IMG/VR virus record: IMGVR_UViG_2802429224_000004
Coordinates: 1-64,000 of that record
Origin: a virus
Taxonomy: Duplodnaviria > Heunggongvirae > Uroviricota > Caudoviricetes
Strand: one strand, 5' to 3'
Length of the DNA: 64,000 bases
Positions 60,443 to 62,805 of the stretch are shown here, in pieces (position 1 is the first letter of the stretch; every line of letters starts with the position of its first letter). The position numbers and the translations under genes were made by a program. The notes beneath the pieces were generated by a model that was not told where the DNA came from, did no database searches, and saw nothing but the letters and a program-made list of their open reading frames with translations.

Positions 60443-61807
60443 ATGTCTGCATCCCCTCTTGAATCCATGCCAAATTCCCTTAGTGCAGAACAAGCTGTAC
60501 TTGGTGGCTTAATGCTTGATAACTGCCGCTGGGATGAAGTTGCAGATCGTATAGTTGCTGATGATTTTTATACCAGTGCTCATCGTGAAATTTTCAGTGA
60601 GATGGAGAGGTTATTAAGTCATGGCAAACCGATTGATTTGATAACACTTGCTGAAGCACTTGAACAGAACGGTAAATTAGAACGCGCCGGTGGTTTTGCG
60701 TACCTTGCGGAGATGTCAAAGAACACGCCCAGCGCGGCAAATATTTGTGCTTATGCGGATATCGTTCGTGAACGCGCGGTTGTTCGTGAAATGATTTCCG
60801 TCGCAAATGAAATAGCCGAAGCTGGATATGCGCAGGATGGCAGGGGCAGCAATGAATTGCTGGATATGGCCGAGCGCCGCGTTTTTGAAATAGCTGAAAA
60901 ACGACAAAAGAGCGGTAGTGGTCCAAAAGATATCGCCAGCATTCTCGATGCAACGGTATCTCGCATAGAAGAGTTGTTTCAGCGACCGCATGATGGTGTA
61001 ACGGGGCTTGATACCGGATTTACCGATCTCAATAAGAAGACGGCAGGACTTCAGGCGTCCGATCTCATTATTGTCGCCGCCCGCCCATCGATGGGGAAGA
61101 CTACGTTTGCGATGAATCTCGTCGAAAATGCCGCAGTCCGTAACGATAAGCCCGTATTGGTTTTTAGCCTTGAGATGCCGAGCCACCAGCTGATGATGCG
61201 CTCACTGGCTTCTCTTGCACGCGTTGATCAGACTCGTATTCGAACAGGGCAACTTAACGACGAGGATTGGGCTCGGGTTTCTGGCGCAATGGGTATTCTG
61301 TTGGACAAGCAGAATATTTTTATTGATGACTCAAGCGCCCTGACGCCGACAGAGCTACGTTCCCGCGCTCGTCGTGTTTATAAAGAAAATGGTGGTTTGA
61401 GCATGATTATGATCGACTACCTGCAACTTATGCGCGTCCCCGAGCTGCAAGATAACCGAACGCTGGAAATTGCCGAGATTTCTCGATCACTTAAAGCGTT
61501 GGCGAAGGAATTACAAGTACCGGTGGTGGCATTGTCACAACTTAATCGATCACTTGAACAGCGTGCGGACAAACGACCCGTAAATTCAGATTTACGTGAA
61601 TCAGGAGCAATTGAGCAGGACGCAGACCTGATCATGTTTCTGTATCGCGACGAAGTTTATCACCCGGATAGCGAAATGAAGGGCATTGCCGAGGTAATTA
61701 TCGGAAAGCAACGAAATGGCCCAATTGGCACGGTGAGATTGGCTTTTAACGGCCAATACTCACGGTTTGATAACTATGCCGGTGCTGACTGGCAAGAGGA
61801 TTATTAA
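60443..61807 (+). CDS. ban: DnaB-like replicative helicase Ban
   Basis: DnaB N-terminal AEQAVLGGLMLD; Walker A SMGKTTFAMN; RecA-like C-terminal motifs. Confidence 0.85.
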   Translation: MSASPLESMPNSLSAEQAVLGGLMLDNCRWDEVADRIVADDFYTSAHREIFSEMERLLSHGKPIDLITLAEALEQNGKLERAGGFAYLAEMSKNTPSAANICAYADIVRERAVVREMISVANEIAEAGYAQDGRGSNELLDMAERRVFEIAEKRQKSGSGPKDIASILDATVSRIEELFQRPHDGVTGLDTGFTDLNKKTAGLQASDLIIVAARPSMGKTTFAMNLVENAAVRNDKPVLVFSLEMPSHQLMMRSLASLARVDQTRIRTGQLNDEDWARVSGAMGILLDKQNIFIDDSSALTPTELRSRARRVYKENGGLSMIMIDYLQLMRVPELQDNRTLEIAEISRSLKALAKELQVPVVALSQLNRSLEQRADKRPVNSDLRESGAIEQDADLIMFLYRDEVYHPDSEMKGIAEVIIGKQRNGPIGTVRLAFNGQYSRFDNYAGADWQEDY

Positions 61808-62805
61808 TGCAATGGAATGAGGAAAAGCCGATGAACATCCTGATCATTGGGCGAAAATTTGAAGCCATCAGTGATGTGAAAACATATACGGAAATGTGGG
61901 CTTATAACCTGGCCTGCGCCTTTAGTGAGTCAGGGGTAACATTGCAATACCATCGTCCATATACCCCTGGCGTCGAAAGCCCGGAGGATTATGTTGAAGC
62001 TGTGTTGACTGCTGCGACCGCATGTTCTGCGAAGGCCATTTTGGCACCAGGATTGAGGTATTTTACTACGGTACCCAGGGAAATAGGCATGCAACTGTGT
62101 CGCCGATTCTCTGGATGGGTAGCCCAGGTATATGACGGTTCTATGCTGGATTCGGCACCAGTCGATATTACTTTTACTGTCCGCGATGATACCTGGCGGT
62201 ACCTGGATAATCCCGGCAGGTTAGAGCGTCATAATCGCTTTAACAAACATGTTGGATGGGCAGCGAATCAGGAACTGTTCCATCTGGAAACCAAGACAGA
62301 CGATGTTCTGCGTATTTTTGTAGACCACGCTGCATTTGATGTTAGTGGGTTTGATCACTCCTTAAGTATCCTTATGAACCTTCAGCGTCTGACCGTTCCG
62401 TATGAGGCCAGAACGTTGACCGATGACGGATTGGTTACCATTGATCCGGGGAATATTTCGGTAACTCCATACAGACGGACGCCGGTACCAGTAACCGAAT
62501 TTGCAGCTGAATTGCGTAAGAGTGACGTTTTTATCGTTACGCATCCCGAAAGCCTTGGATTAACTGTTCTTGAGGCGGCAATGTGTGGGGCGTTGATATT
62601 AACGCCGCCAGATTGCCTTCCGCCAGATCGCCTGGCTTTGGTGAACCATATGGTTATCAAGTCGCGGATTGATTGGGATGAGGTTATTGCTCGCGTTGAT
62701 CGCGTGAAAAATGCTGAAAAGGTCCAGTGTCACACCTGGTCGGCAATCGCGGAAAAGATGCTTGAGACGTTTATCACGCAGAAACCGTCGCGAGGTAACG
62801 GATAA
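61807..62805 (+). CDS. GT-B fold glycosyltransferase-like protein
   Basis: 332 aa; start overlaps ban stop (ATGA-type coupling); GT4-like E-x7-E motif ESLGLTVLEAAMCG. Confidence 0.4.
   Translation: MQWNEEKPMNILIIGRKFEAISDVKTYTEMWAYNLACAFSESGVTLQYHRPYTPGVESPEDYVEAVLTAATACSAKAILAPGLRYFTTVPREIGMQLCRRFSGWVAQVYDGSMLDSAPVDITFTVRDDTWRYLDNPGRLERHNRFNKHVGWAANQELFHLETKTDDVLRIFVDHAAFDVSGFDHSLSILMNLQRLTVPYEARTLTDDGLVTIDPGNISVTPYRRTPVPVTEFAAELRKSDVFIVTHPESLGLTVLEAAMCGALILTPPDCLPPDRLALVNHMVIKSRIDWDEVIARVDRVKNAEKVQCHTWSAIAEKMLETFITQKPSRGNG

What the first reader, a model, noticed from the sequence alone, without database searches (positions are those of the whole stretch)
61807..62805. Glycosyltransferase-like gene translationally coupled to the ban helicase gene
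The 332-aa protein has a GT-B-like layout and an E-x7-E motif (ESLGLTVLEAAMCG) and starts at the ban stop codon. I do not recall a glycosyltransferase at this position in P1. Candidate roles are lysogenic conversion of surface polysaccharide or covalent modification of DNA or a protein as anti-defence.
Basis: inference. Interest (0 to 1): 0.45.

Follow-up and report, generated by a model that had tools for sequence, protein, structure and literature searches.

The report
P1 dbn glycosyltransferase gene
This is the already-annotated dbn gene of phage P1, a sugar-transferring enzyme of untested function; it sits next to the helicase gene by accident and appears to be a displaced member of a four-enzyme phage sugar-building cassette.

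Summary
The ORF is real: 61807-62805, + strand, 332 aa, ATG overlapping the ban stop codon. It is not new. It is dbn of phage P1 (97.6% nt identity, same position), annotated "possible glycosyltransferase"; P7 calls it glt. It occurs in 477 of 5,426 complete E. coli genomes.

Coupling to ban is incidental. Homologues start at Met9, and elsewhere the upstream gene is different.

New here: in at least four other phage lineages dbn lies inside a contiguous pmgO-pmgP-dbn-pmgQ cassette, and one phage encodes a PmgO::Dbn fusion. All 22 phage records with Dbn also carry PmgP and PmgQ. Cellular relatives sit beside WaaZ-like (Kdo-transferase-like) genes in capsule or LPS loci.

Dbn most likely extends a Kdo-type glycan during lytic growth. 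The acceptor is unknown. C1 operators and published knockouts give no support to lysogenic conversion or anti-restriction.

The parts
61807..62805 (+). dbn ORF, long form (332 aa): GT-B, GT4-like glycosyltransferase
61831..62805 (+). dbn ORF, short form starting at Met9 (324 aa), probably the conserved protein
   Evidence: Homologues start at this position. 8 of 81 P1-like copies have unrelated upstream sequence up to this ATG.
61795..61800 (+). AGAGGA Shine-Dalgarno-like motif, 6 nt before ATG 61807 (inside the end of ban)
   Evidence: Read from the sequence.
61819..61823 (+). GAGGA Shine-Dalgarno-like motif, 7 nt before ATG 61831 (Met9)
   Evidence: Read from the sequence.
62548..62574 (+). 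Codons for the E-x7-E motif (E248...E256), within THPESLGLTVLEAAMCG
   Evidence: E248, E256, H246 and G261 are invariant in 71 family members down to 21% identity. This is the region matched by Pfam Glycos_transf_1.
62323..62328 (+). Codons for the invariant D173-H174 at the start of the C-terminal Rossmann domain
   Evidence: Invariant in 71 members. Strand 168-173 of the model.
60437..61807 (+). ban, DnaB-type replicative helicase; its stop overlaps the dbn ATG
   Evidence: Pfam DnaB_C 359.7 bits and DnaB 120.9 bits. P1 annotation.
62827..62853 (.). 11-bp GC-rich hairpin flanked by A and T runs, a likely bidirectional terminator between dbn (+) and baseplate gene 5 (-)
   Evidence: RNA fold -22.3 kcal/mol, z = -3.3 against shuffles. 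dbn is therefore the last gene of the ban operon.
57387..57414 (.). Overlapping pair of C1 repressor operators, equivalent to P1 Obanab/Op72ab, at the head of the ban-dbn operon
   Evidence: Perfect 17-mer at 57387-57403 (+) and a 2-mismatch copy at 57398-57414 (-). 7 matches in the window against 0.36 expected. P1 annotation of Obanab.
62853..63485 (-). Gene 5 (baseplate), convergent neighbour; first gene of the tail block that in P1 separates dbn from pmgO-pmgP-ppp-pmgQ
   Evidence: ORF list. P1 annotation.

Best explanation
The ORF is dbn of a P1-like phage-plasmid.

What it encodes. Dbn is a soluble, cytoplasmic two-Rossmann-domain (GT-B) glycosyltransferase of the retaining GT4 type. The gene is the last one of the C1-repressed ban operon, so it should be expressed on induction or infection rather than in the lysogen.

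Relation to ban. Adjacency to the ban helicase gene is a P1-specific accident of genome arrangement, not a functional link to replication.

The cassette. Dbn is one component of a conserved phage glycosylation cassette:
- PmgO and PmgP, both DUF115/MptE-like and distantly WaaZ- or sialyltransferase-like.
- Dbn (GT-B).
- PmgQ (GT-A, GT8-like).
Other phages keep the genes contiguous as pmgO-pmgP-dbn-pmgQ. In P1 they are split: dbn sits after ban, while pmgO-pmgP-ppp-pmgQ lies about 6 kb away beyond the tail-gene block.

Proposed mechanism (inferred). The cellular relatives of Dbn sit next to WaaZ-like genes in Kdo-rich capsule or LPS loci, and the phage carries no sugar-nucleotide synthesis genes. 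The cassette therefore most likely uses host nucleotide sugars. CMP-Kdo would serve the DUF115 enzymes, and an NDP-hexose would serve Dbn and PmgQ. Together they would build a short acidic, Kdo-containing glycan, with Dbn adding a hexose to the growing chain.

Shown versus inferred. Shown: gene identity, fold, conservation, operon position, cassette linkage. Inferred: donor sugars, order of action, timing. Unknown: the acceptor. The two leading candidates are a virion or other phage-made protein, and an envelope glycolipid.
For: Identity: 97.6% nt identity to P1 dbn in the same position; PHROG 2518 full length.

Fold:
- AF2 pLDDT 87.8.
- Foldseek top hits are GlgM, PimB' and BGluT.
- Distant family members pass the Pfam Glycos_transf_1 cut-off: 29.9, 29.8 and 28.4 bits against 26.4.

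Functionality:
- E248, E256, H246, D173, H174 and G261 are invariant in 71 members.
- 81 of 81 P1-like copies are intact; median dN/dS 0.12.

Regulation: C1 operator pair at 57387-57414; terminator after dbn.

Cassette:
- tblastn finds pmgO-pmgP-X-dbn-pmgQ in L009, pmgP-dbn-pmgQ-pmgO in L010, and pmgO-pmgP-dbn-pmgQ in EP_H11 and IME392.
- P0089 is a natural PmgO::Dbn fusion (E 1e-24 and 1e-32), with a PmgQ-like gene two genes downstream.
- All 22 phage records with Dbn are among the 27 with PmgP and the 32 with PmgQ, out of 50,697 records.

Cellular context:
- MptE/WaaZ_KDO_III-like genes lie adjacent in L011/L102 and L099, and one or two genes away in L004, L005 and L101.
- KpsMTED/CS-type genes and, in Comamonas, KdsA, KdsB/C and KdsD are present.

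Partner enzymes:
- PmgP and PmgO versus these neighbours by hhalign: E 3.7e-5 and 9e-4.
- PmgQ profile hits GT8 enzymes weakly.

Localisation: no TM segment; pI 5.5.
Against: - No biochemical data exist. Single deletions of dbn, pmgO, pmgP or pmgQ give no plaquing or antirestriction phenotype on laboratory E. coli (PMC9024508). CRISPRi also scores dbn as non-essential (PMC10695390).
- This protein itself is below the Pfam Glycos_transf_1 cut-off (23.5 against 26.4 bits).
- The usual GT4 Arg/Lys pair at the start of the C-domain appears replaced by an invariant Asp-His. The donor could therefore be atypical.
- The DUF115 assignments of PmgO and PmgP are sub-threshold (23.4 and 20.9 bits against 34.6). 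The hhalign probabilities are only 71% and 23%.
- The phage lineages showing the cassette are few (about 6-7), and most records are P1-like.
- Some relatives of P1 (JK004, phi456) and phiNP keep pmgP and pmgQ without a detected dbn, so Dbn is dispensable to the core.
- Two recent P1 cryo-EM papers contain no mention of glycans.
Confidence: 0.6

Rival explanations
1. Lysogenic conversion. Dbn, alone or with PmgO, PmgP and PmgQ, is expressed from the prophage. It alters LPS core or capsule and so changes serotype or blocks superinfection through the P1 receptor.
For: - Cellular relatives lie in capsule region-2-like and LPS-core-adjacent loci.
- The enzyme types (WaaZ-like, GT4, GT8-like) are those used for the enterobacterial LPS core (established knowledge of waa clusters).
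- The P1 record annotates two predicted sigma-70 promoters for dbn inside ban. One is recovered in the window at 61170-61197.
- P1 adsorbs to the LPS core (own knowledge).
Against: - The operon starts at a C1-operator pair, and pmgO-pmgQ also lie behind a C1 operator.
- The internal promoter is a weak 9-of-12 match. Promoter-like sites in the region are fewer than in shuffles (2 against 6.7).
- Cassette relatives occur in jumbo phages, where they sit before tail sheath genes, and in lambdoid phages between the lysis or Q region and the terminase genes, i.e. in late operons.
- Dbn has no membrane segment and no gtrA/gtrB-type partners.
Confidence: 0.15
2. DNA glycosylation. Dbn transfers a sugar to phage DNA (or to a modified base) as protection from restriction or other nucleases, which would make its position next to a replication gene meaningful.
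For: - One distant homologue lies between methyltransferase genes, including an N6/N4 DNA methylase (L100).
Against: - These fold matches score no better than dozens of polysaccharide GT4 enzymes.
- A dbn deletion did not change antirestriction (PMC9024508).
- Dbn is acidic, net charge about -9.
- The ban linkage is unique to P1-like elements.
- The conserved partners are DUF115- and GT8-like enzymes, not base-hydroxylating or hydroxymethylating enzymes.
- P1 DNA is not known to be glycosylated (own knowledge).
Confidence: 0.06
3. Stand-alone accessory glycosyltransferase. Dbn acts independently of PmgO, PmgP and PmgQ on some host small molecule, lipid or protein. The cassette linkage would be co-inheritance of cargo genes rather than a shared pathway.
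For: - In P1 the genes are in different operons about 6 kb apart.
- pmgP and pmgQ occur without dbn in phiNP, JK004, phi456, XacN1 and Xoo-sp13.
- Some GT4 enzymes act on small molecules, e.g. BshA and the tetrahydrobiopterin glucosyltransferase among the top fold hits.
Against: - A natural PmgO::Dbn fusion protein exists.
- In L009, L010 and L097 the called or annotated cassette genes that flank dbn overlap it by a few bases.
- All 22 records with Dbn also carry PmgP and PmgQ.
- A DUF115-like neighbour is also conserved in the cellular loci.
Confidence: 0.12
4. Decayed or non-catalytic remnant. The gene is a passenger with a GT-like fold but no activity.
For: - Sub-threshold Pfam score.
- Non-essential in two studies.
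- The canonical basic residues of GT4 are not evident.
Against: - 81 of 81 copies are intact, with median dN/dS 0.12.
- Six residues, including both Glu of E-x7-E, are invariant down to 21% identity.
- The gene is retained in 477 of 5,426 complete E. coli genomes.
Confidence: 0.04

Closest known systems
Dbn of phage P1 (NC_005856 P1_gp078, YP_006544.1), Glt of phage P7, and PHROG 2518
   Same: Same gene. 97.6% nt and 97% aa identity, same length, same position between ban and baseplate gene 5, same TAATG junction. The P1 record already says 'function unknown, possible glycosyltransferase'.
   Different: Eight non-synonymous and 16 synonymous differences from the P1 reference. The upstream cargo differs: an SPFH lipoprotein replaces tciABC. 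P7 annotates a later start.
CAZy GT4-type retaining GT-B glycosyltransferases (e.g. PimA 2gej, BshA 6n1x, sucrose-phosphate synthase 6kih, WaaG 8b5s, WaaB 6y6i)
   Different: - Only 9-14% identity.
- Below the Pfam cut-off.
- Smaller (324-332 aa).
- An invariant Asp-His lies where GT4 enzymes usually carry the phosphate-binding Arg/Lys. This placement is inferred from alignment position, not from a ligand model.
- It forms a small separate family: 370 cluster representatives in 1.84 billion proteins.
Region-2 glycosyltransferases of ABC-transporter-dependent (group 2-like) capsule loci, paired with WaaZ/MptE-like enzymes
   Same: The cellular relatives recovered are 27-52% identical. They sit beside or near an MptE/WaaZ_KDO_III-like gene in loci with KpsM, KpsT, KpsE, KpsD, KpsC and KpsS and Kdo-synthesis genes.
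   Different: None of these cellular proteins is characterised or named. The phage carries no export or lipid-anchor genes. The phage versions pair with two short DUF115-like proteins and a GT8-like protein.
Maf (DUF115) flagellin glycosyltransferases that O-link nonulosonic acids or Kdo to Ser/Thr
   Same: This is a precedent that DUF115 enzymes, the fold weakly detected in Dbn's partners PmgO and PmgP, can put Kdo on proteins in the cytoplasm (title and abstract of bioRxiv 10.1101/2020.06.03.131540).
   Different: It concerns the partners, not Dbn. By my recollection Maf proteins are much larger and carry substrate-binding domains. No protein acceptor is known for P1.
Phage DNA glycosyltransferases (T4 AGT 1y6f; HY126 arabinosyltransferase 9ir0/9iqz)
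   Same: GT-B fold; phage-encoded.
   Different: No better fold score than generic GT4 enzymes. No base-hydroxylation genes as partners. Acidic protein. No antirestriction phenotype.

Membership tests
P1 Dbn / PHROG 2518 | Full-length sequence homology to P1 Dbn | tested here: met
   PHROG 2518 E 2.3e-238, covering 1-332 of 332. 97.6% nt identity to NC_005856 72659-73657.
P1 Dbn / PHROG 2518 | Synteny: directly downstream of ban, convergent with baseplate gene 5 | tested here: met
   Window ORFs compared with the P1 annotation.
GT-B fold glycosyltransferases | Two Rossmann-like beta/alpha/beta domains with an inter-domain cleft | tested here: met
GT4 / Pfam Glycos_transf_1 (PF00534) | Score above Pfam's gathering cut-off (26.4 bits) | tested here: not met
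   23.5 bits for this protein, covering residues 230-315 only. Distant members of the same family do pass: P0101 29.9, P0128 29.8, P0151 28.4 bits. Membership therefore holds by transitive homology only.
GT4 / Pfam Glycos_transf_1 (PF00534) | E-x7-E motif in the C-terminal domain | tested here: met
   E248-x7-E256 are both invariant in 71 relatives.
GT4 / Pfam Glycos_transf_1 (PF00534) | Basic Arg/Lys pair at the start of the C-domain that binds the donor diphosphate | tested here: inconclusive
   The corresponding strand end carries an invariant D173-H174, and D183 is nearly invariant. No ligand-bound model or residue-level structural alignment was available.
GT4 / Pfam Glycos_transf_1 (PF00534) | Retaining transfer from an NDP-sugar | not testable with these tools
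   Needs an enzyme assay and product NMR or MS.
Phage pmgO-pmgP-dbn-pmgQ glycosylation cassette (proposed here) | Physical linkage of the four genes in independent phage lineages | tested here: met
   Contiguous in L009, L010 and L097/L098. PmgO::Dbn fusion with a PmgQ-like gene in L107. Split in P1 and L003.
Phage pmgO-pmgP-dbn-pmgQ glycosylation cassette (proposed here) | Co-occurrence across a phage genome collection | tested here: met
   All 22 records with Dbn also have PmgP (27 records) and PmgQ (32 records), out of 50,697. The lineages are few and not independent.
Phage pmgO-pmgP-dbn-pmgQ glycosylation cassette (proposed here) | The partner genes lie in this window | tested here: not met
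   The window ends inside tail gene 6. In P1, pmgO-pmgQ lie about 7-9.5 kb beyond the dbn start.
Gtr-type serotype-converting glycosylation (GtrA/GtrB/GtrX) | Membrane flippase, GT2 bactoprenol glucosyltransferase and polytopic serotype-specific transferase, expressed from the prophage | tested here: not met
   Dbn has no hydrophobic segment (maximum 19-aa hydropathy 1.55). Its neighbours are ban and baseplate gene 5. The operon lies behind C1 operators.
Phage DNA glucosyltransferases (GT63/GT72 type) | Partner enzymes that make a hydroxylated or hydroxymethylated base, and a restriction-evasion phenotype | tested here: inconclusive
   The conserved partners are GT-like, not base-modifying. 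The published dbn deletion has no antirestriction change. The whole window was not screened for base-modifying enzymes, and DNA chemistry cannot be tested here.

The most novel reading that the evidence does not exclude
Dbn, PmgO, PmgP and PmgQ are a dispersed four-enzyme pathway of phage P1. During lytic growth it would use host CMP-Kdo and NDP-hexoses to build a Kdo-containing, LPS-core-like oligosaccharide on a phage-made target, most plausibly a virion protein. The main pointer is gene position: the cassette and its relatives sit inside or next to head and tail gene blocks in P1, D3/PAJU2-like phages, jumbo phages and L107. That would make P1 the first classical coliphage with virion glycosylation, and it would give a function to four long-standing unknown P1 genes at once.
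Probability: 0.2. Interest if true: 0.7.

Novelty: already known. Interest (0 to 1): 0.33.

Why it matters
The gene itself is ordinary. It is P1 dbn, carried by about 9% of complete E. coli genomes on P1-like phage-plasmids. Its glycosyltransferase-like nature is already noted in the deposited P1 and P7 genome records.

Two things add value:
- The apparent link to the replicative helicase is incidental.
- dbn belongs with pmgO, pmgP and pmgQ in a conserved phage glycosylation cassette whose cellular relatives lie in Kdo-rich capsule or LPS loci. I found no paper that makes this connection.

This turns four 'function unknown' or 'putative morphogenetic' genes of a model phage into one testable pathway. 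It also explains why single knockouts scored only for plaquing and antirestriction showed nothing. It suggests what to assay instead: glycans on virions, LPS or DNA from a multiple deletion.

Tried and rejected
- Sequence search of the Dbn profile against PDB chains gave only Rossmann-level noise (KtrA, E 1e-4) and marginal PimA hits. Fold comparison was needed.
- NCBIfam gave nothing useful for Dbn, PmgO, PmgP or PmgQ.
- The search for related loci returned 80 near-identical P1-like loci from viral contigs and 2 from the genome collection. These served the dN/dS and start-codon analysis but not diversity. Diversity came from the look-up of encoding contigs and tblastn of phage records.
- The afdb50 fold library was unavailable.
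- I suspected from its sequence that PAJU2 ORF011, the gene after the PmgO-like gene, is a GT9 heptosyltransferase. Pfam gave no hit, so I make no such claim.
- I looked for reports of glycans in two recent P1 cryo-EM papers and found none.
- Literature searches for dbn, pmgO/P/Q, WaaZ with prophage, and phage-plasmid glycosyltransferases found no functional study.
- Promoter scanning gave fewer sigma-70-like sites than shuffled sequence, so it provides no evidence for an internal dbn promoter.
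Full report
1. OBSERVATION

The window has an ORF at 61807-62805 on the + strand, 332 aa. Its ATG shares a base with the TAA of the preceding 456-aa ORF at 60437-61807, giving TAATG. That upstream ORF is a DnaB-type helicase by Pfam (DnaB_C 359.7 bits, DnaB 120.9 bits). The quoted string ESLGLTVLEAAMCG is present, with E248 and E256 forming E-x7-E. The coordinates and sequence features are correct.

One qualification concerns the start codon.
- A second in-frame ATG at 61831 (Met9) is preceded by GAGGA at 61819-61823.
- The first ATG is preceded by AGAGGA at 61795-61800.
- Twelve of the 18 homologues aligned begin at the Met9 position.
- Among 81 P1-like copies from viral and genome collections, 8 have an unrelated upstream sequence reaching exactly to the Met9 ATG.
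- In those 8 copies a 101-aa ORF is inserted between ban and dbn (L085 9699-10004).
The conserved protein therefore starts at Met9. The eight extra codons, and the one-base overlap with ban, may or may not be used.

2. IDENTITY

The ORF is not an unrecognised gene.
- Megablast finds it at 96-98% identity in 18 phage records. All are P1-like, and the match always lies next to the helicase gene.
- In the P1 reference it is dbn ('downstream of ban', P1_gp078), annotated 'function unknown, possible glycosyltransferase'. In P7 it is glt, 'putative glycosyltransferase'.
- PHROG 2518 (unknown function) matches end to end at 790 bits.
- It is present in 477 of 5,426 complete E. coli genomes, with 474 of 484 places on plasmids.

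3. IS IT A GLYCOSYLTRANSFERASE?

Sequence evidence alone is weak.
- Pfam Glycos_transf_1 scores 23.5 bits against a cut-off of 26.4, and only over residues 230-315.
- A profile search of PDB sequences gives only marginal hits.

Structure settles the fold.
- The AlphaFold2 model built on 19 homologues has pLDDT 87.8 and pTM 0.85.
- Foldseek against the PDB puts GT4 enzymes first: GlgM, PimB', tetrahydrobiopterin glucosyltransferase and sucrose-phosphate synthase.

The family is small but real.
- An exhaustive HMM search finds 370 cluster representatives (272 at E <= 1e-10) in 1.84 billion proteins.
- Some distant members pass the Pfam cut-off.
- In an alignment of 71 members down to 21% identity, the invariant residues are D173, H174, H246, E248, E256 and G261.
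- All 81 P1-like copies are intact, with median pairwise dN/dS of 0.12. The gene is under purifying selection.

The protein is acidic (pI 5.5) and has no hydrophobic segment.

One departure from canonical GT4 stands out. The start of the C-domain carries an invariant Asp-His, where GT4 enzymes usually have the phosphate-binding Arg/Lys. This is my inference from alignment position and was not tested with a ligand model. The donor is therefore uncertain.

4. OPERON CONTEXT

- A perfect C1 operator lies at 57387-57403, with an overlapping inverted copy at 57398-57414. These correspond to Obanab in the P1 record.
- An 11-bp hairpin at 62827-62853 separates dbn from the convergent baseplate gene 5.
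- dbn is thus the last gene of the C1-repressed ban operon.
- A weak sigma-70-like site at 61170-61197 matches the 'P2dbn' predicted in the P1 record. Such sites are rarer here than in shuffled sequence.

5. THE INFORMATIVE RESULT: NEIGHBOURS ELSEWHERE

Outside P1-like elements the gene upstream of dbn is never a helicase. Instead, tblastn with P1 proteins shows dbn embedded among homologues of P1 PmgO, PmgP and PmgQ:
- L009 (a phage contig with lambda-like head genes; the cassette lies just before the terminase gene): pmgO 6337-6879, pmgP 6843-7433, a 189-aa gene, dbn 8001-8948, pmgQ 8948-9589.
- L010: pmgP, dbn, pmgQ, pmgO.
- Escherichia phages EP_H11 and IME392: pmgO, pmgP, dbn, pmgQ.

In L009, L010 and L097 the called or annotated genes on either side of dbn overlap it by a few bases.

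One metagenomic phage encodes a single 522-aa protein (P0089) that is a natural fusion.
- Residues 19-210 match P1 PmgO (E 1e-24).
- Residues 219-519 match the window's Dbn (E 1e-32).
- It lies in a structural gene block, upstream of head-closure and tail-completion genes.
- A PmgQ-like gene and a methyltransferase gene follow it.

Across 50,697 phage records, Dbn is found in 22, PmgP in 27 and PmgQ in 32. All 22 Dbn records carry both of the others.

In P1 the cassette is split.
- dbn follows ban.
- The tail block 5-6-24-7-25-26 follows on the other strand.
- Then come pmgN-pmgO-pmgP-ppp-pmgQ, behind another C1 operator.
- The phosphatase gene ppp occupies the slot between pmgP and pmgQ that dbn holds elsewhere.
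These partner genes lie beyond the end of the window.

6. WHAT THE PARTNERS ARE

- PmgO and PmgP give sub-threshold Pfam hits to MptE-like/DUF115 (23.4 and 20.9 bits).
- PHROGs labels the PmgO family 'alpha-2,3-sialyltransferase'.
- A PmgQ profile weakly matches GT8 enzymes: a Skp1 galactosyltransferase (E 1.7e-4), glycogenin and LgtC. Its alignment shows an invariant D-x-D and a C-terminal H-G-x-P-R-P.
The cassette thus combines three glycosyltransferase fold types.

7. CELLULAR RELATIVES

The cellular proteins examined are 27-52% identical to the window's Dbn. They lie beside or near an MptE-like/WaaZ_KDO_III-like gene.
- L099 has that gene directly upstream, and the locus also carries KpsM/T-type ABC transporter genes, a Poly_export protein and a Capsule_synth (KpsC/S) gene.
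- In Comamonas testosteroni (L101) the locus has KpsM, KpsT, KpsE and KpsD, a large GT1 enzyme, an MptE-like gene two genes upstream of the Dbn relative, then KdsA, KdsB/C and KdsD homologues, and KpsC and KpsS.
- The closest cellular relative (52% identity, L011/L102) lies 3.5 kb from GT9 and WaaA-type genes.
- The MptE-like neighbours hit WaaZ (TIGR04437, E 1e-15, below its cut-off) and weakly hit Campylobacter sialyltransferases.
- They align to PmgP and PmgO by hhalign at E 3.7e-5 and 9e-4, with modest probabilities of 71% and 23%.

8. MECHANISM

Shown: a conserved, selected, cytoplasmic GT-B enzyme sits in a C1-controlled operon and is genetically coupled to two DUF115-like proteins and one GT8-like protein.

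Inferred:
- Donors. The phage cassettes carry no sugar-nucleotide synthesis genes, and all hosts seen are Gram-negative. The DUF115-like enzymes therefore most likely use CMP-Kdo, the only ulosonic-acid donor I expect in all of these hosts (own knowledge). Dbn and PmgQ would use common NDP-hexoses.
- Product. Together they would make a short Kdo-containing glycan.
- Timing. Lytic growth is indicated by three observations: the C1 operators; the cassette's position in late operons of lambdoid phages (phiNP has it between Rz and terS; L009 has it before the terminase); and its relatives in jumbo phages, where pmgO-pmgP-(methyltransferase::PmgQ) lies just upstream of tail-sheath genes.

The acceptor is not established.

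For a virion or phage-protein target:
- The cassette, or PmgO-like genes, repeatedly sit inside or beside head and tail gene blocks. Examples are L107, D3 orf7, PAJU2 ORF010 and the jumbo phages.
- DUF115 Maf enzymes are reported to O-link Kdo to flagellin.
- The best viral structural match is a Tupanvirus glycosyltransferase (TM 0.75-0.79).

For an envelope glycolipid target:
- The cellular homologues lie in capsule or LPS loci.
- The mix of enzyme families resembles that of the LPS core pathway.

Against both: no phenotype has been reported, and the two recent P1 cryo-EM papers do not mention glycans.

9. PUBLISHED GENETICS

- In-frame deletions of dbn, pmgO, pmgP and pmgQ were made. They fall among the 24 mutants with no plaquing defect and no change in antirestriction (PMC9024508).
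- CRISPRi also scores dbn as non-essential (PMC10695390).
- dbn is mentioned only as an uncharacterised locus in a P1vir transcriptome preprint.
- I found no paper linking dbn with pmgO, pmgP and pmgQ.

10. VERDICT

- The gene is already known and annotated as such.
- The coupling to ban is positional.
- Lysogenic conversion and DNA modification are possible but disfavoured.
- The useful new point is the cassette membership, which gives a concrete and testable hypothesis for four unexplained P1 genes.
- Interest is modest for the finding as stated. It would be higher if the virion- or envelope-glycan hypothesis were confirmed.

Noticed in passing
window 59010-60054: A 78-aa hydrophobic protein and a 275-aa SPFH/Band_7 protein (Pfam 107.6 bits) lie between the tRNA genes and ban, where reference P1 has tciA-tciB-tciC. 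The same variant, at >=99% identity, is in RCS47, vB_EcoM-Ro157c2YLVW and several 'P1' records. An 86%-identical copy occurs in Stx2 phages and in P88.
   Followed up: partly
L085 9699-10004 (and 7 other P1-like loci among L085-L093): An allelic form of the ban-dbn junction. A 101-aa ORF with no Pfam hit is inserted between ban and dbn, overlapping both, and dbn then begins at the Met9 codon.
   Followed up: partly
L107 4304-5872 (protein P0089): A natural fusion of a PmgO-like domain and a Dbn-like domain in one 522-aa protein. It lies in a phage structural gene block, upstream of head-closure and tail-completion genes, and is followed by a PmgQ-like gene and a Methyltransf_21 gene.
   Followed up: yes
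L014 (P1 NC_005856 79400-84500), outside the window: In P1 the Ser/Thr phosphatase gene ppp sits between pmgP and pmgQ, exactly the slot that dbn occupies in EP_H11, IME392, L009 and L010. In the Cronobacter phage JK004, pmgP and pmgQ are adjacent with neither gene between them.
   Followed up: no
L108 4974-6917 (PAJU2 ORF010-012); L109 4998-7083 (Klebsiella phage Eowyn): PmgO-like genes (about 41% identity to P1 PmgO) are annotated 'structural protein'. They lie among head-tail genes in PAJU2 and are followed by an unassigned 275-296-aa protein and a Methyltransf_23 methyltransferase. PmgO-like genes occur in 73 phage records, including D3 orf7 and Caulobacter and Brevundimonas jumbo phages.
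   Followed up: partly
L105 7038-13678 (Stenotrophomonas phage RAS14) and L106 (XacN1 ORF373-375): In these jumbo phages PmgQ is fused to a TylF-type O-methyltransferase domain. In RAS14 the pmgO-pmgP-pmgQ string runs directly into gp15-like tail sheath stabiliser and tail sheath genes. A Dbn-like domain fused to an alpha/beta-hydrolase-like region lies 12 kb away in RAS14.
   Followed up: partly
window 58068-58142 and 60082-60157: ARAGORN finds tRNA-Asn(GTT) and a CAT-anticodon tRNA (annotated tRNA-Ile2 in P1). It does not find the tRNA-Thr that P1 has 2 nt after tRNA-Asn.
   Followed up: no
window 57574-57596: A strong terminator-like hairpin with a T run lies about 170 nt downstream of the C1 operator pair at the head of the ban operon. 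This is about where the P1 record marks a 'dicF-like region'.
   Followed up: no
window 6927, 10777, 36762, 38910, 53865: Five further matches (1-3 mismatches) to the 17-bp C1 operator consensus lie elsewhere in the window, far above chance: 7 matches in all against 0.36 expected.
   Followed up: no
BFVD entry A0A6N1NPH0 (Tupanvirus soda lake): A giant-virus glycosyltransferase is by far the best viral structural match to Dbn: TM 0.75-0.79, rmsd 3.3 A, E 1e-18, against TM of about 0.6 for the next hits.
   Followed up: no
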